NCBI GenBank assembly: GCA_964572175.1 | Contig: CAZNEH010000002.1 | Span: 1,406-65,405, forward strand | From: an uncultured Gammaproteobacteria bacterium | GTDB taxonomy: Bacteria; Patescibacteriota; Patescibacteriia; UBA9570; CAZNEH01 | Direction of reading: 5' to 3' | DNA: 64,000 bases | Shown here: positions 3,978 through 63,578 of the stretch, piece by piece | How positions within the stretch are numbered: the first letter of the stretch is position 1 | How the letters are laid out: the number at the start of each line of letters is the position of its first letter | The notes under the pieces: model-generated | What the model was told of the DNA's origin: nothing | The model's database searches: none | What the model saw: only the letters and a program-made list of their open reading frames with translations | Made by a program: the position numbers and the translations under genes

Positions 3978-4019
3978 AATAGTAAAACTAAAAGGCACCT
4001 TCCAACATCGGAGTCCTCC

Positions 4020-4943: not shown

Positions 4944-4950
4944 GACAAAG

Positions 4951-4988
4951 GGAGCTACCTCCTCGTGAGCTAGCTCCTGTTTTTTTTA
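4951..4988 (+). terminator. intrinsic terminator of the island B gene
   Basis: GGAGCTA...TAGCTCC stem followed by TGTTTTTTTT. Confidence 0.6.
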
Positions 4989-13970: not shown

Positions 13971-14011
13971 CCCCCTCTCCACGAAGGTGGAGAGGGGGCT
14001 AGGGGGTGAGG
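13971..14011 (+). repeat. GC-rich palindromic intergenic element, copy 2
   Basis: CCCCCTCTCCACGAAGGTGGAGAGGGGG + CTAGGGGGTGAGG. Confidence 0.7.
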
Positions 14012-15249: not shown

Positions 15250-15292
15250 TAGCTACCCTCTCCACGAAGGTGGAGAGGGGCTGGGGGAGAGG
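15250..15292 (+). repeat. GC-rich palindromic intergenic element, copy 3
   Basis: Near-identical to copy 1. Confidence 0.7.
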
Positions 15293-15326: not shown

Positions 15327-15366
15327 AGCTCCCTCTCCACGAAGGTGGAGAGGGCGGGGGGAGAGG
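15327..15366 (+). repeat. GC-rich palindromic intergenic element, copy 4 (tandem to copy 3, separated by a CCTGTGGATAAAA motif)
   Basis: Near-identical to copy 6 at 53235-53274. Confidence 0.7.
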
Positions 15367-24223: not shown

Positions 24224-27200
24224 GTGAAACAAACAAAAAACAAAAAATTAGCCCATCTTCTTAGCATTATATCTATCGCTGTTATCAGTGTTTTTTTATT
24301 TAGTTCTAGCCCAGTTCAAGCCGCAGTAGTAACTTGGGAGGGAGATGAAAGCGCCTTATGGAGTGTTGGGGGTAATTGGAGTAATGGTAGTGGTGTAGGA
24401 GCCGGAGACATTGCTACTTTTGATGGTACTGGAAATACGGCTTGTACTATTGATGGCACAGCTAGTGTGGCTGGAATTGATATAAACTCAGGTTATACCA
24501 ATACTATTACTCAAGCTGCAGAATTAACGATTGGAAGTTCTCATTTCGACATTGCCTCCGGAACATTTACTGGTGCAACTCAAGATATTACTATAAGTGG
24601 GAACGTGGTTATTGCTGGGGGTATATTTAATAGTACCTCAGGAACAATTAGCTTTTCTGGAGACTGGACTCATACTGCTGGCGGAGAATGGAACGCGTTG
24701 ACAGGAACAGTAAAATTTACTGGTTACAGAGAAACTTTTAATTTTGATTATCCAACCATTGCCACCTCTGGGGTTTTTAATAATTTTACTTACGATAGTA
24801 CAAGTGACTCCGGTTCTTATGTGAGTTTATCAGGAGACACTTTATATATTAATGGTAATGCTCTTTTTTACGATGGCAGATGTTATAATGGTGCAGGCAT
24901 TCAAGTTCAAGGAGATGTTACTATAGGACCCTGGGATGGCTATGATACTACGGACGCTTCTTTAACTTTTTCTGGAACAGGAACTCAAACTTTTGATTTA
25001 ACTGGGTACACAGGTTCTTGGGATGCTCATACAATTATTGGAACTGGTTCAAATTCTCCAACAGTAAACTTAGCTTCAGATTTTATAATAAATAAAAGTA
25101 CCCAAGATTTAACCATTACTAATGGAAGTTTAAATATCGGAGCCTATGAATTAGAAGTGGTAGACGATACAAATATAGCCGGAGGAACCTTAAATGGTGA
25201 CACCGGGACCTTGGATTTGTATGATGTGATCATTACAGATGGAACCCTTAATGGAACGACCGGAGATTTTAATTTTTCCGGAGATTGGACTCATACTGCC
25301 GGCGGAATCTGGAATCACAATAATGGGTTAGTGACATTTGATGGTTATAGAGAGACTTTTAATTCCAATTATCCTACTATTTCTTCTTCTGGAGTTTTTT
25401 ATAATTTGACTATTAATAACTCAGGCGAAACTGGTGGTTATTTTTCTATCTCCACAGGAGATAGTATTTATGTTAATAATGACCTAAATTTTACTAATGG
25501 TAGATTTAATGTTGGTACATCAGTGGTTGTTCAGGGAGACGTTACAGTTGCCTCTACTTGGGATGGTTTTAACAATACAGATGCCGAATTAATTTTTGCT
25601 GGCTCTGATCCTCAAACTTTTGATCTTACTGGCGGTACCGGAACAATAAATTCAAACATTACTATTGGTACAGGATCTTCAACTCCAACTGTTAATTTAG
25701 TCTCAGACTTAATCATGAATTATGGCTCACAAGACTTAACCGTTCTTGCTGGCACTCTAAATGCATCAACTTACGAAATTGAAGTCATCGATGACTTAAC
25801 AGTCTCTGGTGGAGTTCTTAATGCTGCCTCTGCTAATTTAGACTTAGAAGATTTAATTATTACAGATGGAACTTTTAATGCACCCACTGGAACCATGTAT
25901 ATTTCTGGTAACTGGACCCACACTGCTGGTGGAGTGTTTAATAATAATAGTGGGACCGTTATGTGGGACGGTGCTGGTGCTCACACTTGGAATTTTGACA
26001 AAGCTTCATATGCTACTTCTGGTGTATTTAATAATGTTACATTTGATTGTAATGGCACGGGAACCGTATGTGGCGGAGGTTCTAATTATGTGAGCGTGTC
26101 AGCAGGAGACACTATATATCTAGATGGGGATTTAGAAATTCCTGATGGAAGAATACTTGGCTCAACATCAACTATTGAGGTTTCAGGAGATGTTACTATT
26201 GGAGCGAATTGTTATAGTTATGACACTAATGATGCTGATTTAGTTTTTGCAGGTTCATCACCACAAACATTTGATCTGACTGGTGCTGAGGCTTTATTTA
26301 ATTCTGATATATCAATAGGTACTGCAACTTCGACTCCTACAGTTAATTTGGTCTCTAATTTAACCATGGATCTTTGGGATCAAGATTTAGATATTATCGA
26401 AGGAACTTTAAATTTGAACGGATACGATATTGATTTAGATAATCAATCTGCTAATCATATTACCGTTGAAGATGGCGGAGTCTTTGCTTGGAAGGGAACA
26501 GAGACTCTAGCTCTTAATTCTGGAGACCCAATTTTAAATTCAGGAAGTACTGTCCAATATAACCCAACCACTGGAACAGTTAGTACTCAAGATTGGGGCT
26601 ATCATCATTTAGCAGTAGCCTCTACCGGAGGAGCAATTGTTCAACTTGGAACCACTGAAGCACTAGCCGGAGATTTAAGTATTGACTCTGGAACATTTTC
26701 TCTTAATGGCCAGTCCTTATCAGTGACTGGTACATTTAGTAACGATGGAGCCTTACGTTTAATTGGAACAGAAAGTCCATCCTTAACCAATGATACCGAC
26801 AGTGGAGCAATAGAATATATTGGAGACAATGATTCTGGAATAGATAGCTACACCTTAGGTTTTAGCTCTTATTATGGTCTAATTATTAATAGTAGCGATG
26901 GAGCTGATGATACTTTTCAACTAGCCAGTGACACAGATATTGATGGAAGCCTAACTAACACTGCTGGCACCTTGGATGTGACCACCAATAATTATCAAAT
27001 CAATGTCGCTGGTAATTGGGCTAATGGCGGAGGAACATTTAATCCTCGTTCCGGAGCTGTTGTTTTAGACGGTACCAGCCAAGCTATTTCTGGAACTAAT
27101 ACTTTTTATAAATTAACTAAACAAGTTGGCTCTGCAGATACTCTTACTTTACCAGCTAGTACCACTACTACTGTTTCCAATCTTTTAACTTTACAAGGAA

Positions 27201-30163
27201 ATTCTACAGATCAACGCTTATCTTTAGCTAGTTCTACTCCAGACACTCAATTTAATATTGATCCCCAAGGAGTTAGAATATTACACTATTTAAATGTTCA
27301 AGACAGTAACAACGCCAATGCCACTGAGGCAGATTGTAACAAAGGATGTTTAAGCTCAGATAATAATACCAACTGGAGCTTTTACGATATTTCTACTTAC
27401 ACCACTTCTTCTCAGGCTTGGCATTTTACAAGCTCTAGTGATTATACTTATAACTCTTCTTATATAGACATTGCCCTGGATGCTGGGGCTACTTATTCTC
27501 GTTTAAAGGATTTAGGCGGAGCAACTTATCAAGCTGCTAGCCTACCAGGGCTTAGTCATCGCAAACCAATTACTATTACTAATTCCGGATCGTCTTTAAC
27601 TGATCATCAAATTGAACTTTCAATAACTTACGATTTAGACATGCAGGCTGATTTTGATGATCTAAGATTTACCACTTCAGACGGACAAACAGAAATAGAC
27701 TATTGGATTCAAGATTATACCGCTTCTACATCAGCTACTATCTGGGTTGAAGTTCCAACTATCGCCGCCACCCCAACTGATACTACTATTTACATGCATT
27801 ATGGAAACGCAAGTACTTCCACAACTTCAAATATTGATAATACTTTTCTATTTGGAGACGATTTCGATGATGCCTCAGTAGATACAAATAAATGGACCAC
27901 TACCGGAATCTTAGAAGAAACCGGCGGGTCATTATTAATGAATGCTACCGAAGGTGTTTGGGCTACTAATTATATTGTTGAAGACGACTCTATTACTACT
28001 TTTCAAGCTTATATTGATGTTACTGGGACAAAGTCTAATCTAGGATATGTGGAAGAATCTCATCAATTCGAGGATGATTTAGATTCTGGTGAAAAAGGAT
28101 TTGACTTTGGATTCTGGACTTCCACAAGTTTATATTTTGAAAGAGGGGGAAGTACCTATGAAGAGAGCTCAGTAACTTATGGGACTGGCTGGAATGAATA
28201 TACTGCCACTTACCAAGAAGGAACTTCAATTAAATTTGAATACCCTAGTAGTTCTTTTACTGAAGACACCGCTACCTCTGTGGTCGCAGTTTCAGATGCT
28301 CCTCATTTACAAATTTATTCTTTTGATCGAGTTGATTTTAGAGCAGACTATGTATTTGTTAGAAAATATACCTCTAATACTGTGGGCGCATCTTTGGGTT
28401 CAGAAGAAGAAGTTAGTTACGATAATGTACAAATTATTCCTGTTTCAGTTCCAGCCTACGCCAATATAATTTCTTTTACAGAAACTCTAGGAGCCGCTAA
28501 TGCTGGTAGCGTGGCCTATCAACTATCTAAGAATGGAACTAATTGGTACTATCATAATGATTCCTCTTGGACTGCGGTGTCTGTTGATTCTGTGCACAAT
28601 AATACAGCTACAGAAGTAGATAATTTAATCACAAACTTCACCACAGATGTAGGTACAGGAGATTTATATTTTAAAGCTTTCTTAATCTCAAGTGGATCAC
28701 AAAAAGTTGAACTAGATGCCATAACGTTAACTTATAACGCTGTTCCTCAGGAGCCAACTAGTCTATCTCCTTCAACCACTGACATAGCTTTATCAGGTAC
28801 AGCTTCGGCTACTATTAGCGACATGATGGGATCTCACCAGTCCACTTCTTGGAAAATGCAAACTGGTTCAGATTGTTCTGTAGACTCAGGTGTAGCCTTT
28901 TCCTCCTTGGTAGATTCTACTAACAAAACATCTATTACTTATTCAGGTTTAGACTTTAGCACTTCTTATTACTTATGTGTTGCCAATCATAACGAAGGCG
29001 GCCAAGGAGATTGGCAGTCACAGTCATTTACTACTGTAGCTAATCAAGCTCCAACTGCTAGCGCTGGTACAGATATTACTATCTCAGAAGATGATGAATC
29101 TACGGCCCTAGATGGAACTAGCTCTTCAGACCCAGAAAGCCAGGCCTTAACTTATACTTGGTTAGAAACAGTTGACGCCTCAGATGGATGTTCTTTATCT
29201 AGTCCTAGTAGCTCTACTCCAACTGTTACTGTTTTAAATAAAGACACCAGTTTTAATTGTACCTTTTCTTTAGAAGTAGAAGACACTCAAGGTGCTACTT
29301 CTACGGATACAGTTAATCTTTATATCACTGCCGACAACGACGCTCCAGCTTTTGGATCAATTGCCTCTACTCAAAATATAGATGAAGAATCAGTTTTACT
29401 TATTTCCTTTACCTCTTCAGATCCAGATACTTCCTCTTTGACTCTTTCAGCCTCTAATCTTCCAACAGGTTCCACTTTTACAGACAACCTAAATAACACA
29501 GGAACATTTAATTGGTCTCCAGATGGAACGCAGTCTGGAATTTATACTGTTACCTTCCAATTAACTGATGGTGAAAATACTACCACTCAAACCGTAACCA
29601 TCACAGTTAATGATACTGTTCAAGAAGAGGGGGAGGGTGACGAAGAAGAGGAGGAAGAACCAGTTAACACTATCGAAGACATTGGTCTAGTCTCAGGTAC
29701 AGACTCAGGCCCAGGCATTGTCACTCTTTATGGTAATGACAACGAAGAACTATGTTCAGTCCAAGCTTGGAATGAAGGTGGAGCAGTTCCATTTAGAGTC
29801 CGCTTCTTAGACACTAACTATATTGCTGTAGTAAAAAATAAAACAGGTACCACTATCCATCTTTACGATCTAAATTGTAATATTATTGAGAAAAAAAGAT
29901 TATCCCCTAAACTACATCCTCGTAACATTGTCACTAGAAACTTCTTAGGTAAAACTACTTCTCAAGAAATAGGTTTAACCTCACGAAGAGGAAGCACAGT
30001 ATATGGTAAGATCTTCAGATATAATCCAAACAAAGACAAGTGGTACTTACTAAGACAAAAAACATTTAGACCAGTTCCAACTGGATACAACCTAAAGAAA
30101 ACTAAAAAGGGAAATATTCTTCTTAAGAAAAACAACAAAACTCTCCACAAGTGGGAAATCTAG
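24224..30163 (+). CDS. giant secreted surface protein (1979 aa): beta-helix-like tandem repeats, DUF2341/LamG-like region, cadherin-like (ADNDAP) domains, shared C-terminal module
   Basis: Signal peptide. Three tandem repeats of about 230 aa ([10 protein letters not shown]...GYRETFN). C-terminal 170 aa nearly identical to the other two giant proteins. Confidence 0.8.
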
Positions 30164-30166
30164 TAG
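29650..30166 (+). repeat. large DNA repeat (copy b) encoding the C-terminal module
   Basis: About 90-97% identical to copies a and c. Confidence 0.85.
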
Positions 30167-31227
30167 TTCGGGGCAGCCTGAATATCTACTAAATCATGCG
30201 GATGGCTTTCACGAAGCCCAGCATTTGTTATGCGAACAAACTCTGATTTTTTCCAGAGCTCGCTAATATTTTTTGCACCACAATATCCCATTCCAGATCG
30301 AAGCCCACCTACTAACTGATACACCACTTCATCCACTGATCCCTTATAAGGGACCTTGCCAACAATGCCCTCAGGAACAAGTTTTTTATCTTCTTTAATA
30401 CTTCCTTGTAAATATCGATCTTTACTACCAGCTTTCATGGCCTCTAAAGACCCCATTCCTCGATAAACTTTAAATTTTTTCTTTTTCTTATCAAGTACTA
30501 CTTCACCCGGTGCTTCCCATGTTCCAGCTAAGATTCCACCCATCATTACTAGGCTGGCTCCGGCGGCCAAAGCTTTGACAATATCACCAGAGTGCTTAAT
30601 CCCTCCATCAGCAATGATCGGAGTTTTTGTTTTCAGAGCCGCCTTAGCACATTCTTCAATCGCCGTAATCTGAGGCACGCCCACCCCAGCAATCACCCTA
30701 GTTGTACAAATAGATCCAGGTCCGATCCCTACCTTCACTGCGTCGGCTCCAGCCTTGATTAAATCTCTAGTGGCCGCAGCCGTGGCTACGTTGCCAGCAA
30801 TAACTGGAATACCTTTAAATTCTTTTTTAATCATTTTAACTGTGCTCATTACTCCTTCTGAATGTCCATGGGCTGAATCCACTACTAAAATATCTACCCT
30901 GGCCTTAACTAATTCCTCTACTCTCTTTAAGGTGTCAGTTCCTACTCCAACCGCGGCTCCGACTAAAGCTTTCTGTTGTTTAGCTTTTTTTACTTCCTTA
31001 GCTTGGTCTTTAATAGATAAATTTTTATGAATAATTCCCAGTCCGCCTTCTCTATCCATGGCAATGGCCATCTTGCCTTCAGTAACCGTGTCCATGGGCG
31101 CAGAAATCATTGGTATCTCTAACTCGATTTTTTTTGTTAATTTAAATCTAGTGTTTACTTGCCGCGGCAACACATTAGATTTTTGCGGAACCAATAAAAC
31201 GTCATCAAATGTTAAAGCTTCTTTCAT
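30160..31227 (-). CDS. guaB: IMP dehydrogenase family protein lacking CBS domains (IMPDH/GMP reductase fold)
   Basis: [11 protein letters not shown] catalytic Cys loop. Adjacent to guaA. 355 aa with no CBS pair. Confidence 0.8.
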
Positions 31228-31283
31228 ATATTTGGTAAATAGTTAATGGTTTATGGTTTGTAGTTTATCACATTAAAATAAAT

Positions 31284-31317
31284 AAAAAAAGAGGGAACTC
31301 GGGTAAGTGATTCCCTC
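31284..31317 (-). terminator. intrinsic terminator of the island C gene (minus strand)
   Basis: Minus strand reads AGAGGGAA-loop-TTCCCTC then TTTTTTT. The loop is the 14-nt inverted-repeat sequence. Confidence 0.6.
31297..31310. repeat. left arm of a perfect 14-bp inverted repeat (ACTCGGGTAAGTGA) flanking island C
   Basis: Exact reverse complement of 31858-31871. Confidence 0.8.
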
Positions 31318-31838
31318 TAGGTGTTGATGAGGTGGTCCAGAAAGGCTTCGAATGCCGCCGGGTCTCGGTCCGCGTAGAGCGTCTGCTCTCCGTGGACAAA
31401 GGACAGGTGCGGAATTTCCAGTAGCTTCTGGGCCAGGTTCTCGCGGGTCAGGACTTGGGCTTCTCCCCAGACCCCTTCCGCCAGGTAGTTCTCGTGGGTG
31501 ACATTCGGAGCCGCTGCTTGAACTTCCATCCCTCCGAGGTCTTGCTTCAGGCGGGCCAGTTCAGCGTTGTACTCCATCTCGAAGGCCACGCCAGGGTTGC
31601 GTCCTTGCAGAAGGACTTGGTCTCCGTTGAACGTCACCTTGTACTTGGGTACGACCATCAGAGCGCACTGCAGACCCATGCCCTTGGCCAGGTCTTGGCA
31701 GTCCTTAGGGTCTCGTCGGCACTCGGAAGAGCACCGGTTGTTGCAGCCAGGGTCAGGATCCTTGAACACGCCAGTCATCTCGTTTCCGATCCGACCGGCT
31801 TGGTTGAGGAAGTAGACCGTGCAGATAAAAAGTTGCAT
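31317..31838 (-). CDS. hypothetical protein, Cys-rich N-terminus (CNNRCSSECRRDPKDC); GC-rich island C
   Basis: About 60% GC. GGGGGA SD before the ATG. No recognisable family. Confidence 0.5.
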   Translation of the reverse strand: MQLFICTVYFLNQAGRIGNEMTGVFKDPDPGCNNRCSSECRRDPKDCQDLAKGMGLQCALMVVPKYKVTFNGDQVLLQGRNPGVAFEMEYNAELARLKQDLGGMEVQAAAPNVTHENYLAEGVWGEAQVLTRENLAQKLLEIPHLSFVHGEQTLYADRDPAAFEAFLDHLINT

Positions 31839-31857
31839 GTTTCCCCCTTCGGGGGAG

Positions 31858-31871
31858 TCACTTACCCGAGT
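31858..31871. repeat. right arm of the 14-bp inverted repeat (TCACTTACCCGAGT) flanking island C
   Basis: Lies immediately 5' of the island C gene, beside the TCCCCCTTCGGGGGAG hairpin. Confidence 0.8.
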
Positions 31872-31901
31872 CTTAAGAAAGGTTAGTTTATTTTTGCTAA
31901 T

Positions 31902-31930
31902 TTGTCAATACATAGAAAATATAATACAAT
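31902..31930 (+). promoter_or_regulatory. guaA promoter TTGTCA-N17-TACAAT
   Basis: Exact spacing, 6 nt upstream of the ATG at 31937. The -35 overlaps a possible divergent promoter for island C. Confidence 0.45.
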
Positions 31931-31936: not shown

Positions 31937-33631
31937 ATGAAAAAAGATCAAATCGCCATTTTAGACTTTGGCTCTCAATACACCCACCTCATTTGCCGTC
32001 GCTTGCGTCAACTTGGGGTGCAAGCAAAAATTTACCCGCCTACTATCGATACTAAAACTCTCCAGCGTGCCTGGGGAATTATTTTATCTGGTGGTCCCGC
32101 CAGTGTTAATAACAAGGCTATTCCCTTTAATGCCGCAGTTTTTAAGCAAAAAGTCCCTGTTTTAGGCCTCTGTTATGGTCATCAATTAATTACAGACTAT
32201 TTTGGTGGCAAAGTAGAACACGGCACTAACAAAGAATACGGACAGGCAAAAGTAAGTTTCAAAGAAGATATTTTATTAAAAGGTCTTCAGAAGAGCGAGC
32301 AGGTCTGGATGAGTCATTGGGACGTAGTCACTAAACTTCCGCCTAATTTTAAATCCCTTTCTAAAGACAATTCCGCGATCGTTAACTTAGAAGACAAGAT
32401 TTGGGGTTTACAATTTCATCCTGAAGTTCATCACACTCCAAACGGTCTAAGAATTTTTGCTAATTTTATCAAGATCTGTGGAGCAAAGAAAACCTGGAAC
32501 ATAAAATCTCTAAAAAATAAAATAATTAAAGAAATTCGTGCTACGGCTGGCAAGAAAAAAGTCTTTTTATTAGTTTCCGGAGGAGTAGATTCTACGGTAG
32601 CCTTTGCTTTACTAGAAAAAGCCTTAGGCAAAGACAGAGTTTATGGTTTTCATGTCGACAATGGCTTTATGCGCTTAGATGAAAGTAGTAAAGTAAAAAA
32701 GTTTTTAGCCAAAGCTGGATTTGACGACTTGAAGGTTTATAATGGAGAGCAAAGATTCCTAAAGGCAGTTAAGGGAGCAATAGATCCAGAAGAAAAAAGA
32801 AAAATAATAGGAGAGTTATTTGTCGAAATTGCTAACGAAGAAATGGCTAAGCTAGATATTGATAATTACTTGTTAGGTCAGGGGACTATTTACCCAGACA
32901 CTATCGAGTCTGGAGGCACCGAGCATGCCGACAAAATTAAAACTCATCATAATCGGGTCGACTTGATCCAAGAAATGATTGACCAAGGTAAAATCATCGA
33001 ACCTTTAAAAGATTTATATAAAGACGAAGTTAGAGAACTGGGTAAAGAATTAGGAATTAGTAAAGCCCTGCTAGAGCGTCATCCTTTTCCTGGTCCAGGC
33101 TTAGCAATTAGGGCATTATGTTCAAATGGCAAAGATCCTATTAAGAGCGTGGGAGTTCAAGGAGATGAACGTTCTTATAAAGAACCAGCTATTATTACAA
33201 AACTAGCTAGTTTTAAGCAACTTAACAAAAAATCAATAGCCATCACTAATAACAGTGATAAAGTAAATAGAGTATTATATTTAACTTATCCACAAAAATT
33301 AAGAAAATTAAAAACACATCCCAAGACTTTAACTAAAGATAGACTAGATTTATTGCGTCAAGCAGACGACATTGTAATGAAATTCATTAAGAGAGAAAAG
33401 ATTTCTAAAGAAATATGGCAATTTCCTACTGTTTTGCTACCTTTAGGCCAGAAAGGAGAGTCTTTAGTTCTTCGGCCAATAGAGTCTAAAGAAGCCATGA
33501 CTGTGAATTTCTACTCCATGAAAAAGGCTTTATTAAACAAATTAGTCAAAGAATTAGCTAAATTAAGCGAAATTGACTATATTTTCTACGATATCACCAA
33601 TAAACCTCCCGGCACTATTGAATGGGAGTGA
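31937..33631 (+). CDS. guaA: GMP synthase (glutamine-hydrolysing)
   Basis: GATase (GLCYGHQL), ATP-PPase SGGVDS P-loop, and the C-terminal PPGTIEWE. Confidence 0.92.
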   Translation: MKKDQIAILDFGSQYTHLICRRLRQLGVQAKIYPPTIDTKTLQRAWGIILSGGPASVNNKAIPFNAAVFKQKVPVLGLCYGHQLITDYFGGKVEHGTNKEYGQAKVSFKEDILLKGLQKSEQVWMSHWDVVTKLPPNFKSLSKDNSAIVNLEDKIWGLQFHPEVHHTPNGLRIFANFIKICGAKKTWNIKSLKNKIIKEIRATAGKKKVFLLVSGGVDSTVAFALLEKALGKDRVYGFHVDNGFMRLDESSKVKKFLAKAGFDDLKVYNGEQRFLKAVKGAIDPEEKRKIIGELFVEIANEEMAKLDIDNYLLGQGTIYPDTIESGGTEHADKIKTHHNRVDLIQEMIDQGKIIEPLKDLYKDEVRELGKELGISKALLERHPFPGPGLAIRALCSNGKDPIKSVGVQGDERSYKEPAIITKLASFKQLNKKSIAITNNSDKVNRVLYLTYPQKLRKLKTHPKTLTKDRLDLLRQADDIVMKFIKREKISKEIWQFPTVLLPLGQKGESLVLRPIESKEAMTVNFYSMKKALLNKLVKELAKLSEIDYIFYDITNKPPGTIEWE

Positions 33632-33637: not shown

Positions 33638-33686
33638 TGCTATAATATAAGTATGAAACAAATTAAGGACAACCCTAGGGTTGTCC
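33638..33686 (+). promoter_or_regulatory. extended -10 promoter TGCTATAAT plus a 20-nt perfect palindrome GGACAACCCTAGGGTTGTCC in the leader of the giant protein gene
   Basis: Palindrome at 33667-33686, which is 12 nt before the ATG at 33699. Confidence 0.4.
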
Positions 33687-33698
33687 ATACATATTATT

Positions 33699-36600
33699 AT
33701 GGCTCAAAAAACAAAAAAGAAGGCATTTTACTTATCTAGCGCGGTTATTATTGCAATAATCAGCATTTTTTTATTTAATTACCCCCCTCAATCAGTAAAT
33801 GCAGCCGATGAATCAGTTTCTTGTAATTCTACCACCCTAGATCAAACCGCTTTAGATGCTTTAGCTGGAGATGCTGTTACTTTTACTGACGGTGGAGACG
33901 GTATTTGTATTTTTACTGGAACTTTAGGCGCTGCTTCTGTTACTGTTAACGCTGATGTTACTTTAACTCACAATGCTGAGGATGAAGATGGATTAAGTAT
34001 TACCACTGCAGATTATTTTCTCTTAAATGGAAACATAGACGTTGAGGGAAAAGGTTGTTCTGGCGGAGAAAATGGAAGCACTGATGGTCATGGTCCAGAC
34101 ACATCTACCGGGGTTTGTGCTCAAACTACTAGTGGTTATGGTAAGAGTGGTGATAGTGGAGGGGCACATGCTGGCTCTGGTGGCGAAGGACATTATGGTG
34201 GGGCAGTTCAATTAACAACTTATGGAGACTCCAACAATTCCTCTTTACTCGGATCTGGAGGTGGAGCTACCAGTAATCCAAATACTTATGGTGGAAATGG
34301 CGGCGGATTAATTGCTTTAACAATAGGAGGAACTTTAACTGTAAACGGTAGTATAAATGCTGATGGGCAAGATGGTTATGGAACAGCGAATCGTGGTGGC
34401 GGAGGATCTGGGGGTTCAATTAAAGTGACAACTACTACCTTAGCTGGGTCTGGGGCAATTTCTGTTGATGGAGGTAATGGTAATACAAATTACTCTGGTG
34501 GCGGTGGTGCAGGCAGGGCTGCAATTTATTATAATGATGCTAGCGGCTTTACTTTAACTAATATTACTGCTGCTAAAGGTTTAAAATCTTCTGGAACTAC
34601 TGGTAATGCCGAAGATGGAACCGTTGGTTCAATTTTTATCTTAGATCAAGATTCTGACATCTTAACTACTACTACTGGCTTAGAGCTGCAAGACGGGGAT
34701 GATTACACTAAATCCGAAATTACTTTTTTAGATGGTGCTCAAATCTGGTGTGATAGCTTTGCCACTCTTAATATCGGAGCCACTGGTACCTTAGCAATGG
34801 ATGATAATACCTGGACTTGTGACAGTGTTGATACTATAAATATGTCTGCTGGCACTTGGACCACATCTGGAACCAGTACCATGAGCTTTAATAAAGCAGG
34901 TAGTCAGGTAGATTGGGATATTTCTAATAATCTTACTTTAAATAACCTAACTTATAATGGAGGATATGCCGGAATCACTAGTGCTAGTGGCGGGCTTTTA
35001 ACTTTAGATAACCCCATTGATATTAATTTAGTAAATACAGATATTATTTCTAGTGTAGACTTGGACGCTACTAATCTAACTCTAGATGCTAGCTCATCTG
35101 TTAGCGCCAAAGGAACAGGTTGTGCCGGTGGAATAACTAGCAGTACCAATGGTTATGGACCCAATACCTCCACAGGAATTTGTACTCAAGGAGAAAGTGG
35201 TTATGGTAAAGGAAATGATGGAGGAGGGGCGCATGCTGGTGCTGGCGGTCGAGGAAATTATGGTGACGCTACCCAGTTAACAACCTATGGCAGTGCTGAT
35301 AATCCATCTTTATTTGGTTCAGGTGGAGGATCTAATGCTAATCCAAATAATTATGGCGGATATGGAGGAGGAAAAGTTTTTATTGATGTTACTGATACTT
35401 TGTCTGTAGCTGGAGATATAAATGCTGACGGACAAGATGGTTATGGTTCTGGTAGTCGTAGTGGCGGAGGCTCTGGAGGGGCTTTAAAAATTACTACTGG
35501 AACTTTATCTGGAGCTGGAACAATTTCTGTTGATGGTGGCAATGGTAATACAGATTACTCTGGTGGAGCCGGTGGCGGCCGAGCTTATGTTGGCTATGCT
35601 GTTAATGATTCATTTAATCTTTCTAATATTACTTCCACCAAAGGTTTAAAATCTTCTGGAACTCCTGGTAGTGCAGTTGATGGAGGCGATGGCTCTGTTT
35701 CTACCCTTGCTTACACCGCTCCAACACAACCAACTCTTAGTCCTTCAGACACATCTCGTAACATGGCCCTAACCAGCTCAGCTTATTCTTCAAATGGTGC
35801 TTCTCATACTTCTACTGATTGGTATGTTTGTACTGATGCTGCTTGTGATGCTAGTAGCCTAGTCTGGTACTCTGAAGATGATGCTTCTAACTTAGAAGCA
35901 GTAACTGTAAATACAACTAATGGAACTTTTGCCGGCACCTTGGCTGGTGAAACAAAGCTTGCTCCAGCAACTAGTCATCAAATAAAAGTTCGCCATACCA
36001 ACGCTGCTGGTGATTCTACTTGGAGTAGCTTTACCGGTCAAAGCACTCAAGCTAATAATGTTCCAAGTGCTCCTACTAATGTAGCTCCTGCAGATGCTAC
36101 CACTGACCAATCTAAAACTCCAACCCTAACTTCTTCTATATACTCAGATTCAGACTCAGATGATCATGGAGATTCTACTTGGGAAATATATGAATCTTCA
36201 GATTGTACTGGAGATAAAGCCTGGAGATCATTAGATGACTCTTCTAATTTAGAATCAATTGATACTTCTGCCGCTGGAACCTTTCTTGATGACTATGCTA
36301 CTCCAGGAGAATTAAAAGGGCACACTGAATATTCTTGGAAAGCTAGGCACGACGATGAATATTCTGGTCAATCTTCAGACTCATCTTGTACAAAATTTAC
36401 TACCTTAAACACCACTCCAACTGCCAATGCAGGCGCAGATCAAACCGCTACTGAAGGAGACGACGTAACCCTAAGCGGGTCATCTACAGATTTAGACTGG
36501 AACGACACAGTTACTGAAACTTGGATTGAATCACTTGATTCTTCAGATGCTTGTACTCTTTCTGGAACAACGGCCACTACTTCAGATAAAGAAACATCTT

Positions 36601-37490
36601 ACACTTGCCAATTCCAAGTTACAGCTGACGACGGTCAAGGTACTACAGATACCGACACTATGACTTTAACTGTCACTGCCGATAACGACGCTCCAACTAT
36701 GGGCACTCTGGCAGACGTTGTTGTAGATGAAGAACAAGCTCTTCTTATTGCCATTTCTTCTGCCGACACAGACTCATCTTCTTTAACTCTTTCAGCATCA
36801 ACCTTACCAACTGGCGCAGTCTTTACCGATAACGAAGACACCACTGGAAACATGCAATGGACTCCAACCTCAGATCAATCAGGAGCCTATGCTGTTACCT
36901 TCAGTGTTTCAGACGGCACAACTGCAGTCACTCAAAATATTACCATCACTGTAAACGACACAGTCCAAGACGAAGAGGAAGAAGAACCAGTTAACACTAT
37001 TGAAGACATTGGCTTAGTTTCTGGAACAGAATCAGGTCCTGGTATTGTCACTCTTTACGACAATGACAACGTAGAGCTATGCTCAGTTAGAGCTTGGAAC
37101 GAAGGTGGGTCAGTTCCATTCGCAGTTCGCTTCTTAGACACTACTTATGTGGCAGTTGTAAAAAATAAAGTAGGCACCACTATTCACCTTTACGATCTAA
37201 ATTGTAATATTATCGAGAAAAAAAGATTATCCCCCAAACTACATCCTCGTAACATTGTCACTAGAAACTTCTTAGGTAAAACTACTTCTCAAGAAATAGG
37301 TTTAACCTCACGAAGAGGAAGCACAGTATATGGTAAGATCTTCAGATATAATCCAAACAAAGACAAATGGTACTTACTAAGACAAAAAACATTTAGACCA
37401 GTTCCAACTGGATATAACCTAAAGAAAACCAAAAAAGGAAATATTCTCATCAAGAAAAACAATAAAACTCTCCACAAGTGGGAGATATAG
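33699..37490 (+). CDS. giant Gly-rich cell-surface protein (1263 aa), intact paralog of 10073-13878
   Basis: MAQKTKKK signal anchor, Gly-rich repeats, cadherin-like domains, shared C-terminal module. The ORF-track start at 33681 is TTG inside the leader palindrome. Confidence 0.8.
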   Translation: MAQKTKKKAFYLSSAVIIAIISIFLFNYPPQSVNAADESVSCNSTTLDQTALDALAGDAVTFTDGGDGICIFTGTLGAASVTVNADVTLTHNAEDEDGLSITTADYFLLNGNIDVEGKGCSGGENGSTDGHGPDTSTGVCAQTTSGYGKSGDSGGAHAGSGGEGHYGGAVQLTTYGDSNNSSLLGSGGGATSNPNTYGGNGGGLIALTIGGTLTVNGSINADGQDGYGTANRGGGGSGGSIKVTTTTLAGSGAISVDGGNGNTNYSGGGGAGRAAIYYNDASGFTLTNITAAKGLKSSGTTGNAEDGTVGSIFILDQDSDILTTTTGLELQDGDDYTKSEITFLDGAQIWCDSFATLNIGATGTLAMDDNTWTCDSVDTINMSAGTWTTSGTSTMSFNKAGSQVDWDISNNLTLNNLTYNGGYAGITSASGGLLTLDNPIDINLVNTDIISSVDLDATNLTLDASSSVSAKGTGCAGGITSSTNGYGPNTSTGICTQGESGYGKGNDGGGAHAGAGGRGNYGDATQLTTYGSADNPSLFGSGGGSNANPNNYGGYGGGKVFIDVTDTLSVAGDINADGQDGYGSGSRSGGGSGGALKITTGTLSGAGTISVDGGNGNTDYSGGAGGGRAYVGYAVNDSFNLSNITSTKGLKSSGTPGSAVDGGDGSVSTLAYTAPTQPTLSPSDTSRNMALTSSAYSSNGASHTSTDWYVCTDAACDASSLVWYSEDDASNLEAVTVNTTNGTFAGTLAGETKLAPATSHQIKVRHTNAAGDSTWSSFTGQSTQANNVPSAPTNVAPADATTDQSKTPTLTSSIYSDSDSDDHGDSTWEIYESSDCTGDKAWRSLDDSSNLESIDTSAAGTFLDDYATPGELKGHTEYSWKARHDDEYSGQSSDSSCTKFTTLNTTPTANAGADQTATEGDDVTLSGSSTDLDWNDTVTETWIESLDSSDACTLSGTTATTSDKETSYTCQFQVTADDGQGTTDTDTMTLTVTADNDAPTMGTLADVVVDEEQALLIAISSADTDSSSLTLSASTLPTGAVFTDNEDTTGNMQWTPTSDQSGAYAVTFSVSDGTTAVTQNITITVNDTVQDEEEEEPVNTIEDIGLVSGTESGPGIVTLYDNDNVELCSVRAWNEGGSVPFAVRFLDTTYVAVVKNKVGTTIHLYDLNCNIIEKKRLSPKLHPRNIVTRNFLGKTTSQEIGLTSRRGSTVYGKIFRYNPNKDKWYLLRQKTFRPVPTGYNLKKTKKGNILIKKNNKTLHKWEI

Positions 37491-37500: not shown

Positions 37501-37539
37501 CCCCCTCTCCAGACGTGGAGAGGGGGTTTGGGGGTGAGG
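37501..37539 (+). repeat. GC-rich palindromic intergenic element, copy 5
   Basis: CCCCCTCTCCAGACGTGGAGAGGGGG + TTTGGGGGTGAGG. Followed by TGCTATAAT at 37548-37556. Confidence 0.7.
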
Positions 37540-40457: not shown

Positions 40458-40477
40458 AGACGCGATTAATCGCGTCT
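40458..40477 (+). promoter_or_regulatory. 20-nt perfect palindrome AGACGCGATTAATCGCGTCT in the recA 5' UTR
   Basis: Same core as the recA terminator. Lies 9 nt upstream of the ATG, with no SD between. Confidence 0.5.
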
Positions 40478-40486: not shown

Positions 40487-41494
40487 ATGAGTAAAACAAA
40501 ACAAGACTCCCGCGGTAAGGCCGCTCAAGAGGCTATCGACCAAATTAAAGAAAAATTTGGCGAAGGTTCTATTATGAAGCTGGGCGAGGCTAAGCAAATG
40601 AAAGTAGAATCAGTTCCTACTGGTTGCCTATCCTTAGACTTAGCCCTAGGAATAGGTGGCGTCCCTCGAGGTAGGATTATTGAAATCTATGGGCCAGAAT
40701 CTTCTGGTAAAACTACCTTGTCTCAACACATTGTCGCCGAGGTTCAAAAACTAGGTGGCACCGCTGCCTTCATAGATGCTGAGCATGCCCTAGATCCAGA
40801 CTACGCAGCTAACATTGGAGTGGACACTAAAAACTTACTTATTTCTCAGCCAGATACTGGGGAACAAGCTTTAGAAATTTTAGAAACTTTAGTTCGTTCT
40901 AACGGGGTAGACGTAATCGTTGTTGATTCCGTGGCTGCTCTTACTCCTAGAGCTGAAATAGAAGGGGACATGGGTGCTTCACACATGGGTCTACAAGCTC
41001 GTTTAATGAGTCAAGCATTAAGAAAATTAGCTGGGATAGTGTCTAAAACAAATACCTCTATCATTTTTATTAATCAGATTAGAATGAAGATTGGAGTCAT
41101 GTTTGGTAATCCGGAAACAACTACTGGTGGAAATGCTTTAAAGTTTTATTCCTCAGTACGTATCGAAGTTCGCAGAGCCGCTCAAATTAAAAAAGGAGAC
41201 CAAATCATTGGTAACCGAACCAAGGCTAAAGTAGTAAAAAATAAAGTTGCTGCTCCTTTTAGAACTACTGAGTTCGACATCATGTATAACGAAGGAATTT
41301 CTATTGCTGGCGACATGCTAGACACAGGCGTCCAATTTGGAGTTATTAATAAATCAGGTAATACCTACACCTATAAAGATAAAAAATTAGGAGTAGGTCG
41401 AGAAAATTCTAAAACTACTTTAAAAGCAGATAAAAAACTATTAGAAGCAGTTCGTAAAGAAGTTATAGAAGTAGTTGAAAAAGCAGAAGAATAG
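40487..41494 (+). CDS. recA: recombinase RecA
   Basis: GPESSGKTT Walker A, L1/L2 loops, full length. Confidence 0.97.
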
Positions 41495-41507: not shown

Positions 41508-41547
41508 AAAAAGTAGAGACGCGATTAATCGCGTCTCTACTTTTTTT
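41508..41547. terminator. bidirectional intrinsic terminator (long perfect palindrome AAAAGTAGAGACGCGATT|AATCGCGTCTCTACTTTT)
   Basis: A-run, a 14-bp stem, then a T-run. Serves recA (+) and the convergent minus-strand gene. Confidence 0.8.
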
Positions 41548-44394: not shown

Positions 44395-44422
44395 AAAAAT
44401 GACTTCTACCAAGGAGAAAGTC

Positions 44423-45199
44423 ATGTCGACTCAAGCTCTCTTCGATCACACTGGTCGCCTCATCCCTCCTCCCAACCCTCGGTCCGGGTACGGGGTCTGT
44501 GATCCCGATCCCGAGTTCCACCTGATCCAGCCAGATATCGACTACTCAGTTCGATTAGCCCGAGCCATGGGGCTCTTGCCCGATGGCCTCGTCTGGCCTT
44601 CCGCAGCACAGTTCGCAGATGCCTGTCAGGCCCAGCTGGAGAGGCTGGGCCAAGATGAGCAGGCTCGCAACGCTCTCCACGGCGTGCACCTTCCGTTCTG
44701 CCTGCCGCAGATAGATGTTCACAACATGGGAGGCGTTCTGGACGAGGTCTTCCTGCCAGCTCTGGAGCAGGCCCTGGTGCCCCACCGCCGCTTTCGCAAT
44801 TCTCGCCAGGGCGATCTGGCCAAGATGGTTTCTACCTTCAGGGGTAGCCGCCATATTGACCTGGTCAAGAGACTGGCTCAAGAACCGATCATCGGGACCT
44901 GCTTCCCTGTCGCCCTGCAGGGGTTCTCGTCCAACGCCGCCAGAAGGCAGATCAAGGAAGTGCCTTCCAGCTGGATCCTCAGCGGGTTCGATCTGATCAT
45001 GGCCATGATTATGTACCCCGAGGTCTTTGGCAAGGGCATCAAGGTTCCGGCCATGTGGCCCCTGGCGTTCCTCGGAAAAGAAAGGGGGTACTCCTTCGAA
45101 GTCTGCACCTTCGATCCCCGCTACATCAGCTTCGGGATCATGGCCACTCACTTCTACGCCGGAAAGGCATGTTCCTCCGGACTGTCCTTCCTCGGGTAG
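44423..45199 (+). CDS. hypothetical protein (258 aa); GC-rich island D
   Basis: About 60% GC. AAGGAG SD 6 nt before the ATG at 44423. The ORF-track start at 44399 abuts the -10. No recognisable domain. Confidence 0.5.
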   Translation: MSTQALFDHTGRLIPPPNPRSGYGVCDPDPEFHLIQPDIDYSVRLARAMGLLPDGLVWPSAAQFADACQAQLERLGQDEQARNALHGVHLPFCLPQIDVHNMGGVLDEVFLPALEQALVPHRRFRNSRQGDLAKMVSTFRGSRHIDLVKRLAQEPIIGTCFPVALQGFSSNAARRQIKEVPSSWILSGFDLIMAMIMYPEVFGKGIKVPAMWPLAFLGKERGYSFEVCTFDPRYISFGIMATHFYAGKACSSGLSFLG

Positions 45200-45202
45200 G
45201 AC

Positions 45203-45245
45203 GCAGGTGCTTTAGCTCACGGGCTATCGCACCTCGCTTTTTTTT
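45203..45245 (+). terminator. intrinsic terminator of the island D gene
   Basis: GCAGGTGC...GCACCTCGC stem followed by TTTTTTTT. It contains the stop codon of the convergent gene. Confidence 0.6.
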
Positions 45246-53234: not shown

Positions 53235-53274
53235 AGCTCCCTCTCCACGAAGGTGGAGAGGGCGGGGGGAGAGG
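53235..53274 (+). repeat. GC-rich palindromic intergenic element, copy 6
   Basis: CCCTCTCCACGAAGGTGGAGAGGG + CGGGGGGAGAGG. Confidence 0.7.
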
Positions 53275-58742: not shown

Positions 58743-58786
58743 AAAAAGGGTAAGGTAATTCATCGGTCAAATCACAGCATTGAGAG

Positions 58787-59107: not shown

Positions 59108-59156
59108 TAGCTACGTGCCGCTTCCTCGCCCCCTTTTACCGCAATTCCATTTCAAT

Positions 59157-62360: not shown

Positions 62361-62376
62361 GGACGTTGTCCTCTTC

Positions 62377-62929: not shown

Positions 62930-62949
62930 GCTGGCGACCTCGTAGGTCG

Positions 62950-63560: not shown

Positions 63561-63578
63561 AGGGAGGGAGGTTGCTCC

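What the first reader, a model, noticed from the sequence alone, without database searches (positions are those of the whole stretch)
31284..31871. GC-rich single-gene island C flanked by a perfect 14-bp inverted repeat, inserted between guaB and guaA
A 173-aa gene at about 60% GC (Cys-rich N-terminus CNNRCSSECRRDPKDC, no recognisable family) sits between guaB and guaA. ACTCGGGTAAGTGA (31297-31310) and its exact reverse complement TCACTTACCCGAGT (31858-31871) bracket the gene. The left arm forms the loop of the gene's terminator, and the right arm lies beside a TCCCCCTTCGGGGGAG hairpin that overlaps the SD. A chance 14-mer inverted repeat within 600 bp is very unlikely. This looks like terminal inverted repeats of a minimal mobile cassette or integration scar. 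Alternatively the arms form a long-range stem that loops out the whole transcript.
Basis: seen in the sequence. Interest (0 to 1): 0.65.

Follow-up and report, generated by a model that had tools for sequence, protein, structure and literature searches.

The report
Foreign orphan gene with self-pairing mRNA ends
A small gene of foreign composition sits between guaB and guaA in an AT-rich candidate-phyla-radiation (CPR) bacterium, and the inverted repeat around it looks like the start of its mRNA pairing with its own terminator loop, not like the ends of a jumping element.

Summary
A 173-aa gene lies on the minus strand at 31317-31838. Its block is 58% GC against 38% in the flanks. The 14-nt inverted repeat is exact and extends to 19 nt with one mismatch.

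An exact 14-mer repeat alone is not rare (0.44 expected per window). The 18/19 version is rare (0.007 expected). So is a 14-nt match between one gene's own leader and trailer (about 3e-4 over 44 genes).

The mobile-cassette reading is not supported:
- There is no target-site duplication, no second copy and no transposase in the window.
- The left arm sits inside the terminator hairpin, not at the island edge.
- The other compositional islands lack such repeats.
- The only homologue, about 26-29% identical, has none.

Island C is one of at least eight promoter, Shine-Dalgarno (SD), ORF and terminator modules. They share one foreign codon usage, in a host whose own genes mostly lack SDs.

The right arm begins at the predicted transcription start. 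The left arm is the terminator loop plus part of its stem. Folding predicts a 14-bp end-to-end helix (P about 0.98, about -23 kcal/mol) next to an SD-sequestering hairpin. My best guess (confidence 0.4) is an mRNA panhandle, like the 5'-3' locks of type I toxin mRNAs. This is untested, and the protein's function is unknown.

The parts
31290..31871 (.). GC-rich foreign block (island C), 582 bp, 58.2% GC against 37.9% in the flanks
   Evidence: Codon usage correlates with the other islands (r = 0.73) and anticorrelates with host genes (r = -0.27).
31317..31838 (-). Coding sequence of a 173-aa orphan protein (P0001), including the stop codon
   Evidence: GC3 0.73. No family match in Pfam, PHROGs, PADLOC, NCBIfam or PDB. 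One homologue, P0002. AlphaFold2 pLDDT 68, with no fold match.
31853..31871 (-). 5' arm: the first about 19 nt of the predicted mRNA, ACUCGGGUAAGUGACUCCC. The exact 14-nt part is 31858-31871.
   Evidence: Its outer end coincides with the GC/AT boundary. It lies 0-3 nt from the start site predicted from the -10 hexamer.
31297..31315 (-). 3' arm: GGGAAUCACUUACCCGAGU, made of part of the terminator's 5' stem half, its loop and one base of its 3' stem half. The exact 14-nt part is 31297-31310.
31283..31318 (-). Intrinsic-terminator-like hairpin: stems 31311-31318 and 31290-31297, a 13-nt loop at 31298-31310, and seven U at 31283-31289. It overlaps the TAG stop.
   Evidence: -12.2 kcal/mol. The consensus scan missed it because the loop is longer than 8 nt.
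31842..31856 (-). SD-sequestering hairpin UCCCCC-GAA-GGGGGA. The SD GGGGGA lies 4 nt before the ATG.
   Evidence: about -12 kcal/mol. Equilibrium probability 0.85 in the full-length RNA.
31880..31908 (-). Promoter-like site TTGACA (31903-31908), 17-nt spacer, TAACCT (31880-31885). It would start the transcript at about 31871-31874.
   Evidence: Read. It falls below the scan tool's -10 threshold. It resembles the promoters in front of the other islands. This part is an inference.
30160..31227 (-). guaB (IMP dehydrogenase without the CBS subdomain), downstream of island C on the same strand
31937..33631 (+). guaA (GMP synthase), divergent. Its promoter TTGTCA-17-TACAAT at 31902-31930 shares the -35 region with the island promoter.

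Best explanation
Island C is a horizontally acquired, self-contained expression module: promoter-like site, short leader with a strong SD, an orphan 173-aa ORF, and a hairpin plus U-run terminator. It sits between guaB and the divergent guaA of an AT-rich Patescibacteria (CPR) chromosome. At least seven other modules of the same foreign codon usage lie nearby.

The inverted repeat is not a DNA end. It is complementarity between the first 14-19 nt of the mRNA and the loop and 5' stem half of its own terminator. My inferred mechanism has three steps:
1. The terminator hairpin forms locally and ends transcription.
2. The free 5' end then nucleates on the exposed 13-nt loop. It displaces the weaker stem (-12 kcal/mol) to form a 14-bp end-to-end helix (about -23 kcal/mol).
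3. The finished mRNA becomes a closed panhandle. Its 5' terminus is base-paired, and the SD stays locked in the adjacent hairpin.

The likely consequence is a stable but poorly translated transcript, as in the 5'-3' long-distance interactions of type I toxin mRNAs.

Shown here: the sequence anatomy, the foreign composition, the non-random repeat and the thermodynamic preference. Inferred: the promoter and start site, the order of folding, and any effect on stability or translation. The protein's function remains unknown.
For: Foreign module:
- GC 58% against 38%. GC3 is 0.73 against 0.31-0.34 for guaA and guaB.
- Codon usage matches the other islands and anticorrelates with host genes.
- Island genes A, B, C, D and F2 have strong SDs. 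Host genes mostly have none and often carry TATAAT about 7 nt before the ATG.
- Each island has its own hairpin and T-run.
- Promoter-like TTGAC(N)-16/17-TAAGRT sites precede islands A, D, E, F and G. Island C's site is a close variant.
- Both junctions are reproduced in a second assembly.

RNA-level reading:
- Both arms lie inside the predicted transcript. The 5' arm lies right at its start.
- The minimum-free-energy fold and the ensemble of the 590-nt RNA pair the arms. P is about 0.98, the terminator stem P is about 0, and the SD hairpin P is 0.85.
- Forbidding the 5' arm from pairing costs 23 kcal/mol.
- Duplex energies are -23.8 kcal/mol (14 nt) and -31.4 kcal/mol (19 nt), against -12.2 for the terminator.
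- Leader/trailer complementarity has z = -5 and ranks second of 44 genes.
- The 18/19 repeat is expected 0.007 times per window.
- A comparable mechanism, a 5'-3' long-distance interaction replacing transient SD hairpins after termination, is documented for aapA and hok mRNAs (PMC6733600).
Against: - There is only one sequence, so no covariation test is possible. The single mismatch is C.A in the sense RNA.
- The only homologue lacks the repeat, so the repeat is not a conserved feature of the gene family.
- None of the other islands shows it.
- The promoter is a pattern match with a 3/6 -10 hexamer, which the scan tool did not call.
- No transcript data exist.
- This genome carries duplicated palindromic hairpins around other genes (recA, Mur ligase). 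Repeat-element dispersal can therefore place similar sequence at both ends of a gene without any RNA function.
- Equilibrium folding says nothing about kinetics in vivo or about ribosome traffic.
Confidence: 0.4

Rival explanations
1. Non-functional remnant. The two arms are two inverted copies of one repeated hairpin element (REP-like or terminator-like) from the donor genome. Alternatively, they are a short templated copy made during replication. The upstream copy now lacks its outer stem half. The complementarity then has no role of its own.
For: - If the terminator hairpin is inverted, it predicts AGAGGGAA-TCACTTACCCGAGT-TCCCTCT. The right side reads CGGGGGAG-TCACTTACCCGAGT-CTTAAGA: the loop is identical, the inner stem half is 5/8 similar, and the outer half is absent.
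- The host itself shows that duplicated hairpins can bracket genes. Examples are recA (an 18-bp palindrome twice) and Mur ligase (a REP-like family of 6 copies).
- A Y1 transposase gene flanked by inverted hairpins lies just beyond the window.
Against: - The loop is perfectly conserved (14/14) while the adjacent stem is not. Neutral decay of a duplicated hairpin would not give that pattern.
- There is no other copy of the arm in the window, IMG/VR or the JGI metagenomes.
- The arm starts at the predicted transcription start, which this model does not predict.
Confidence: 0.25
2. Long-range antiterminator. The 5' arm pairs with the emerging terminator 5' stem half and loop before the 3' half is made. 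This suppresses termination and lets transcription read through into guaB, which lies 90 nt downstream on the same strand.
For: - The 19-nt arm covers the 5' stem half and the loop, so pairing and terminator formation are mutually exclusive.
- The island sits between guaB and the strong -35 shared with guaA, so guaB may need read-through.
- The 69-nt spacer before guaB has only weak promoter-like sites.
Against: - Only about 8 nt separate the loop from the 3' stem half. A 540-nt-distant partner is unlikely to beat local hairpin closure kinetically.
- An extended -10-like TGATAAACT lies in the spacer and could serve guaB.
- No precedent was retrieved for pairing-based antitermination over this distance.
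Confidence: 0.08
3. Invertible segment (inverton). A site-specific recombinase flips the 537-bp SD+CDS segment between the arms. This switches the gene off relative to the fixed outside promoter.
For: - Arm length (19 bp) and spacing (537 bp) are in the range I recall for known invertons.
- The arms bracket exactly SD+CDS, and the promoter lies outside.
- Because the arms include GGGA(A/G), a terminator-like stem would persist in either orientation (sequence).
Against: - No invertase or any recombinase is encoded in the 64 kb.
- Two assemblies show the same orientation. The Logan contig runs unbroken through both arms.
- No promoter is evident for the flipped orientation.
Confidence: 0.08
4. 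Terminal inverted repeats of a non-autonomous mobile cassette, or an integration scar.
For: - The repeat is significant and brackets a single foreign gene.
- The right arm ends exactly at the compositional boundary.
Against: - There is no target-site duplication (left flank ...AGAGGGA, right flank CTTAAGA...).
- The left arm is 7 nt inside the GC block, within the terminator.
- It is single-copy.
- Five sibling islands in the window have no terminal repeats.
- The homologue has none.
- There is no transposase in the window. The nearby Y1 transposase belongs to a class that I recall acting on hairpins rather than terminal inverted repeats, and its flanking hairpins are unrelated.
Confidence: 0.06
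5. Chance coincidence in a GC-rich segment.
For: Exact 14-mers in inverted orientation within 1 kb occur 0.44 times per shuffled window. The feature was picked out after the fact.
Against: - The 18/19 repeat is expected 0.007 times per window.
- A leader/trailer-specific 14-nt match over 44 genes is expected about 3e-4 times.
- Other genes reach only 4-8 nt, apart from the two with duplicated palindromes.
Confidence: 0.05

Closest known systems
Phage 'morons': independent promoter-gene-terminator units of deviant GC content inserted between two genes (PMC3594210)
   Same: It is a single gene with a promoter-like site and its own intrinsic terminator. Its GC content and codon usage differ sharply from its neighbours. 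It sits in an intergenic position without disrupting the flanking genes. Several such units lie in one genome.
   Different: The context is a bacterial (CPR) chromosome with rpoBC, recA, groESL and uvrA, not a phage or prophage. No relative with an empty site could be found. The 5'/3' complementarity is not part of the definition of a moron quoted in PMC3594210.
5'-3' long-distance interaction of type I toxin mRNAs (hok/Sok fbi-tac; Helicobacter aapA/IsoA; PMC6733600)
   Same: The extreme 5' end of the transcript pairs with its 3' end to close the whole mRNA. A local SD-sequestering hairpin is present. The closed form is predicted to be far more stable than the local terminator hairpin and should form after termination.
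   Different: The product is a 173-aa soluble-looking protein, not a peptide under 60 aa. The long-distance helix does not itself cover the SD. No antisense RNA promoter was found. There is no evidence of toxicity and no conservation across homologues.
Terminal-inverted-repeat transposable elements and MITEs
   Same: A 14-19-bp inverted repeat flanks a short segment of 575 bp.
   Different: There is no target-site duplication, no multiplicity and no transposase. One arm is internal to a terminator hairpin.
Invertons (invertible promoter or gene segments flanked by inverted repeats)
   Same: Repeat length and spacing are typical. The repeat brackets a functional unit next to a fixed promoter.
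   Different: There is no recombinase nearby. Only one orientation is seen in two assemblies.
REP/RAYT and IS200/IS605 hairpin elements
   Same: The genome has REP-like hairpin families that bracket genes. A Y1 (HUH) transposase gene is flanked by inverted hairpins.
   Different: The island C arms are not palindromic themselves and match none of those hairpins. The 3' hairpins of the islands all differ from one another, so they are not substrates of one hairpin-specific transposase.

Membership tests
TIR transposable element / MITE | Terminal inverted repeats lie exactly at both element ends | tested here: not met
   The right arm ends at the GC/AT boundary. The left arm lies 7 nt inside the GC-rich block, forming the terminator loop.
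TIR transposable element / MITE | Target-site duplication flanks the repeats | tested here: not met
   The flanks are AGAGGGA| and |CTTAAGA. The edges of the GC block are AAAAAAA| and |CTTAAGA. The nearest direct repeat is an 8-mer, TAGTTTAT, 22 and 13 nt away, one of 13 similar chance families.
TIR transposable element / MITE | Multiple copies, or copies elsewhere | tested here: not met
   There are 2 arm matches in the window and nothing else. The 19-mer has 0 hits in IMG/VR and in the JGI metagenomes. Isolate and MAG genomes (GTDB) were not searched for it.
TIR transposable element / MITE | A cognate transposase in the genome | tested here: inconclusive
   None was found in the 64-kb window. 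A Y1_Tnp gene lies about 1 kb beyond the window, with unrelated hairpins. The rest of the genome was not seen.
Moron-type independent transcription unit | [quoted passage not shown] | tested here: met
   58.2% against 37.9% GC. GC3 is 0.73 against 0.31-0.34.
Moron-type independent transcription unit | Own promoter and own terminator | tested here: inconclusive
   The hairpin plus U7 is present. TTGACA-17-TAACCT is a pattern match below the scan tool's threshold. There are no transcript data.
Moron-type independent transcription unit | Inserted between genes that are adjacent in related genomes | tested here: inconclusive
   The closest GuaA relatives are only 58-63% identical. They have purH-guaA, not guaB next to guaA. 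No empty site is available.
Moron-type independent transcription unit | Resides in a phage or prophage genome | tested here: not met
   The window encodes rpoB, rpoC, recA, ftsK, groESL, uvrA, uvrD and lexA. No phage hallmark proteins were found.
Type I toxin mRNA with 5'-3' long-distance interaction | Pairing of the transcript's 5' and 3' ends | tested here: met
   Tested in silico only. Arm helix P is about 0.98 and contributes about -23 kcal/mol.
Type I toxin mRNA with 5'-3' long-distance interaction | Small (under 60 aa) hydrophobic toxic peptide | tested here: not met
   The product is 173 aa with a predicted mixed alpha/beta fold.
Type I toxin mRNA with 5'-3' long-distance interaction | Cis-encoded antisense RNA antitoxin | tested here: inconclusive
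   No plus-strand promoter-like site lies inside the island; only the guaA promoter was found. No RNA data exist.
Type I toxin mRNA with 5'-3' long-distance interaction | Activation by 3'-end processing | not testable with these tools
   This needs transcript mapping.
Inverton | Both orientations present in the population | not testable with these tools
The NCBI and Logan assemblies agree, and the Logan contig is unbroken across the arms.
Inverton | Invertase gene | tested here: not met
   None was found in the window. The rest of the genome was not seen.
Integron gene cassette | attC recombination site at the 3' end and an integron integrase | tested here: not met
   By my inspection, the 29-nt hairpin with a 13-nt loop and U-run does not have the structure of an attC site. 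No integrase was found in the window.
IS200/IS605-type or PATE hairpin-ended element | Conserved subterminal hairpins shared by copies and matching those of the Y1 transposase element | tested here: not met
   The island 3' hairpins all differ. None resembles TGACCTAG-GCAAG-CTAGGTCA, which flanks the Y1 gene.

The most novel reading that the evidence does not exclude
The GC-rich islands would be a family of complete promoter-SD-ORF-terminator modules from one unknown donor. They would have colonised the intergenic regions of an essentially SD-less CPR chromosome by a mechanism that leaves no recombinase, repeat or duplication. Island C would carry a built-in post-transcriptional lock: a 5'-end/terminator-loop panhandle plus an SD hairpin, of the kind so far known only from type I toxin mRNAs, here on a full-size orphan protein. 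That would make it a new class of 'locked' foreign gene, perhaps a toxin or effector held silent until 3' processing.
Probability: 0.12. Interest if true: 0.75.

Novelty: new variant of a known kind. Interest (0 to 1): 0.45.

Why it matters
If the end-to-end pairing is real, 5'-3' mRNA locks are not confined to tiny type I toxins. They could also be used on ordinary-size genes that arrive by horizontal transfer. That would offer one way a streamlined symbiont tolerates foreign, strongly SD-driven genes.

The larger point is the context. About a tenth of this 64-kb stretch of a CPR genome consists of orphan genes with one coherent foreign codon usage. Each is packaged as its own transcription unit, in a host that otherwise hardly uses Shine-Dalgarno sequences. 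Identifying the donor and the insertion route would bear on how CPR bacteria acquire genes from their hosts or their hosts' viruses.

The specific claim of a new mobile cassette with terminal repeats does not hold up.

Tried and rejected
1. **Empty-site comparison.**
It returned only hits of 50-66% identity from many phyla.
   - The nearest GuaA relatives are 58-63% identical and have a different gene order.
   - Exact-protein look-ups of GuaB, GuaA and P0001 found only the same sample.
2. **More copies of the arm.** None in the window, IMG/VR or the JGI metagenomes.
3. **More family members.**
   - A word-index search found only the protein itself.
   - Exhaustive HMMER over 1.8 billion representatives found one distant homologue.
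   - A profile search added nothing.
   - IMG/VR and JGI DNA scans with the profile found nothing.
   - Phage tblastn, and blastn against phages and plasmids, found nothing.
4. **Protein function.**
   - No hits in Pfam, PHROGs, PADLOC, NCBIfam or PDB sequences.
   - The two AlphaFold2 models (pLDDT 57 and 68) gave no Foldseek match at E <= 0.001 in PDB or BFVD.
   - The Cys-rich stretch is not conserved in the homologue and has low confidence in the model.
5. **Known RNA families.** Nothing in Rfam for the locus or the whole window.
6. **Flanking repeats in the other islands.** None.
7. **Link to the Y1 transposase or the host REP-like hairpins.** No sequence relation.
8. **Viral origin of islands A and D.** No relatives in IMG/VR.
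9. **Literature.** Searches for the run accession and for GC-rich islands in Patescibacteria returned nothing.
Full report
**1. The observation**

The coordinates and sequences are as reported.
- ACTCGGGTAAGTGA lies at 31297-31310 and its exact reverse complement at 31858-31871.
- The repeat extends to 19 nt with one mismatch, 31297-31315 against 31853-31871.
- Between the arms lies a 173-aa ORF on the minus strand, 31317..31838.
- The block 31290-31871 is 58.2% GC. The guaB and guaA flanks are 37.9% and the window is 38.6%.
- The ORF shows coding periodicity: GC at codon positions 1/2/3 is 0.66/0.36/0.73, while guaB and guaA have GC3 of 0.34 and 0.31.
- The neighbours are an IMP dehydrogenase lacking the CBS subdomain and a GMP synthase.
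- An independent Logan assembly of run SRR8146440 gives a 6.5-kb contig identical through both junctions. The island is therefore not a misjoin peculiar to one assembler, although the reads are probably the same.

**2. Is the repeat more than chance?**

- In shuffles that preserve local composition, an exact inverted repeat of 14 nt or more within 1 kb occurs 0.44 times per window. The real window has exactly one.
- The 18-of-19 version is rare: one observed, 0.007 expected.
- I also compared the 45 nt upstream with the 60 nt downstream of each of 44 genes. This gene has a 14-nt exact match and a duplex of -34.5 kcal/mol (z = -5).
- Apart from the recA and Mur-ligase genes discussed below, the other genes reach only 4-8 nt.
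- My analytic estimate for a 14-nt leader/trailer match over all 44 genes is about 3e-4.
- The repeat is real, but its significance rests on the extension and the placement, not on the 14-mer alone.

**3. Anatomy on the gene's strand**

- TTGACA (31908-31903), a 17-nt spacer and TAACCT (31885-31880) form a promoter-like site. It would start transcription at about 31874-31871.
- The 5' arm ACUCGGGUAAGUGA(CUCCC) begins at 31871. This is also exactly where the composition switches from AT-rich to GC-rich.
- It is followed by a 6-bp hairpin, UCCCCC-GAA-GGGGGA, that contains the SD. The ATG follows 4 nt later.
- After the TAG stop comes AGAGGGAA-UCACUUACCCGAG-UUCCCUCU and seven U.
- The 3' arm is the loop, one base of the 3' stem half, and, in the 19-nt version, five bases of the 5' stem half.
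- The scan tool did not call this terminator because the loop exceeds 8 nt. It did not call the promoter because the -10 hexamer matches only 3 of 6.

**4. Context: island C is one of a set**

- The window holds further blocks of about 55-60% GC near 580-1790, 3990-4975, 44400-45235, 58750-59135 and 62300-64000.
- A Logan contig that continues past the window end shows that the last block goes on. Yet another block follows.
- All island ORFs have GC3 of 0.62-0.75. Their codon usage correlates with each other (r = 0.6-0.8) and anticorrelates with host genes.
- Preferred island codons are C- or G-ending (CTG, CGC, TCC, GCC, GGC, CCC, ACC, GTC, AAG, GAG, CAG). Host genes prefer TTA, AGA, TCT, GCT, GGA and so on.
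- Island genes A, B, C, D and F2 have strong SDs. Host genes mostly have none, and several have TATAAT about 7 nt before the ATG, suggesting leaderless mRNAs.
- Each island ends in its own GC-rich hairpin with a T-run.
- Islands A, D, E, F and G are preceded by TTG(AC/CA)N-16/17-TAAG(A/G)T. Islands B and C carry close variants. In islands A and F, GC-rich DNA continues upstream of the -35 hexamer, so there the promoter belongs to the island.
- The islands are therefore complete foreign transcription units. This matches the definition of phage 'morons' (PMC3594210).
- However, the setting is a Patescibacteria chromosome with rpoBC, recA, ftsK, groESL, uvrA, uvrD and lexA.
- Almost all island proteins are orphans. 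Only a divergent MTAP-like phosphorylase and acyl-carrier-like proteins are recognisable.

**5. The protein**

- There is no match in Pfam, PHROGs, PADLOC, NCBIfam or PDB sequences.
- An exhaustive HMMER search of 1.8 billion cluster representatives found one relative, P0002 (182 aa, E = 7e-4 library-wide).
- The pairwise BLASTP E-value is 9e-19 at 26% identity over the full length. The N-terminus (MQ...F.C...F.N.AGR.G.EM) and the C-terminus are conserved. This supports the annotated ATG.
- The AlphaFold2 models (pLDDT 57 and 68, pTM 0.52 and 0.65) show a mixed alpha/beta fold. Neither gave a Foldseek match at E <= 0.001 in PDB or BFVD.
- P0002 sits on a 2.6-kb JGI contig. It is also somewhat GC-richer than its surroundings (about 47-53% against about 38-40%).
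- It is flanked by a 45-nt direct repeat that looks like a reiterated promoter region. It has no flanking inverted repeat.

**6. Testing the mobile-cassette reading**

- There is no target-site duplication at the arm ends or at the block edges.
- The left arm is not terminal. Seven GC-rich stem bases and the T-run lie outside it.
- There is no further copy of the arm in the window, and no copy of the 19-mer in IMG/VR or the JGI metagenomes.
- None of the other islands in the window has flanking inverted repeats.
- No transposase, integrase or invertase is encoded in the window.
- A Y1 (HUH) transposase gene lies about 1 kb past the window end. It is flanked by inverted copies of a hairpin, TGACCTAG-GCAAG-CTAGGTCA and TGACCTGC-CTTGC-GCAGGTCA, which differ by compensatory stem changes.
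- From my knowledge of that enzyme class, it works on specific hairpins. The island hairpins all differ from one another and from those, so I see no link.
- An empty site could not be examined. The organism is sampled once. Its nearest GuaA relatives are 58-63% identical and have guaA behind purH rather than facing guaB.
- Synteny downstream of guaA (ftsK, HTH, recA, groEL) is conserved with those relatives.

**7. Testing the RNA reading**

- Folding the about 590-nt predicted transcript pairs the two arms in the minimum-free-energy structure.
- In the ensemble, the 14 arm pairs have mean probability 0.97-0.99 for any start between 31871 and 31874.
- The terminator stem has probability near 0, the SD hairpin 0.85, and the 4-bp extension 0.06.
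- Forcing the 5' arm single-stranded costs 23 kcal/mol.
- In isolation, the arm duplex is -23.8 kcal/mol (14 nt) or -31.4 kcal/mol (19 nt). The terminator is -12.2 and the SD hairpin about -12.4 kcal/mol.
- I infer that the local hairpin forms first and terminates transcription. The single-stranded 5' end then nucleates on the 13-nt loop and displaces the stem.
- The result would be a closed mRNA with a paired 5' terminus and a sequestered SD.
- The documented parallel is the 5'-3' long-distance interaction of hok and aapA toxin mRNAs. There it replaces transient SD hairpins after termination and keeps the full-length mRNA stable but untranslated until 3' processing (PMC6733600).
- It is established from work on E. 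coli mRNAs (my own knowledge, not retrieved here) that a base-paired 5' end protects bacterial mRNAs.
- This locus is not a member of that toxin family. The product is 173 aa, and no antisense promoter was found.

**8. Caveats and rivals**

- Only one sequence exists, so there is no covariation.
- The homologue and the sibling islands lack the feature.
- This genome also places duplicated hairpins around other genes. recA is bracketed by two exact copies of the palindrome GACGCGATTAATCGCGTC. The Mur-ligase gene is bracketed by two members of a six-copy REP-like family.
- A neutral origin is therefore plausible: two inverted copies of a donor hairpin element, or a templated patch.
- Against it, the loop is perfectly conserved while the adjoining stem is not, and the arm begins at the predicted start site.
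- A long-range antiterminator that lets transcription reach guaB, an inverton, and pure chance are the remaining rivals. I rate each below 0.1.

**9. Verdict**

- The terminal-repeat interpretation is not supported.
- The foreign, moron-like nature of the island is well supported.
- The wider pattern is the more unusual result and deserves its own follow-up. It consists of many orphan, SD-bearing, single-donor-like modules in an SD-poor CPR chromosome.

Noticed in passing
window 40459-40476 and 41518-41535: recA (40487..41494) is bracketed by two exact copies of the 18-bp perfect palindrome GACGCGATTAATCGCGTC. One lies in its leader, 10 nt before the ATG and downstream of the promoter-like site TTGACG-17-TATGAT. 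The other forms its bidirectional terminator. These are the only two copies in the window, and three relatives show nothing similar around recA.
   Followed up: partly
window 2903-2929, 13972-13997, 15255-15280, 15330-15355, 37502-37525, 53238-53263: A REP-like family has six copies. Each is a palindrome, CCCTCTCCAC-GAAG-GTGGAGAGGG, followed by a G-rich tail (GGGGGAGAGG). All copies have the tail on the plus strand. Two copies bracket the Mur-ligase gene. The GTG starts listed at 2919, 13987 and 37515 lie inside the hairpin and are probably spurious. No Rfam match was found.
   Followed up: partly
window about 580-1790, 3990-4975, 44400-45235, 58750-59135, 62300-64000; L091 1460-1915 and 2540-3776: At least seven more GC-rich modules (54-60% GC, GC3 0.62-0.75) share the foreign codon usage of island C. 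Each has an SD, a terminator hairpin and a promoter-like TTGACN-16/17-TAAGRT site or a close variant. Nearly all encode orphans. The exceptions are a divergent MTAP-like phosphorylase and three acyl-carrier-like proteins.
   Followed up: partly
window-wide gene starts (for example 22738, 5307, 31937, 53285-56119, 60235-62280): Host genes mostly lack a Shine-Dalgarno sequence. Several have TATAAT or a close variant about 7 nt before the ATG, suggesting widespread leaderless mRNAs. This contrasts with the strong SDs of the island genes.
   Followed up: partly
L091 1995-2471 (about 0.8-1.3 kb beyond the window's right end): An AT-rich (about 25% GC) 158-aa Y1/HUH transposase gene (PF01797) lies between two GC-rich blocks. 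It is flanked by inverted copies of a 21-nt hairpin, at L091 1951-1971 and 2561-2581, that differ by compensatory stem changes. It looks like an IS200-like or RAYT-like element.
   Followed up: partly
window 24224-30163 and 33681-37490: The two giant surface-type proteins that flank the guaB, island C and guaA region end in a nearly identical C-terminal domain of about 200 aa ([15 protein letters not shown]...KTLHKWEI). This suggests recent duplication or gene conversion around this locus.
   Followed up: no
window 1807-2082 (minus strand): A 91-aa ORF downstream of lexA matches only the thumb/HhH part of a Y-family polymerase (PF21999). It may be a truncated dinB. It abuts island A.
   Followed up: no
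window 31902-31908: The -35 hexamers of the guaA promoter (TTGTCA, plus strand) and the island C promoter-like site (TTGACA, minus strand) overlap back to back. Both divergent transcripts would share one 7-bp region.
   Followed up: no
L002 1898-1942 and 2542-2586: The only homologue of the island C protein is flanked by a 45-nt direct repeat (78% identical). It looks like a reiterated promoter or intergenic motif, on a contig of unknown origin.
   Followed up: partly
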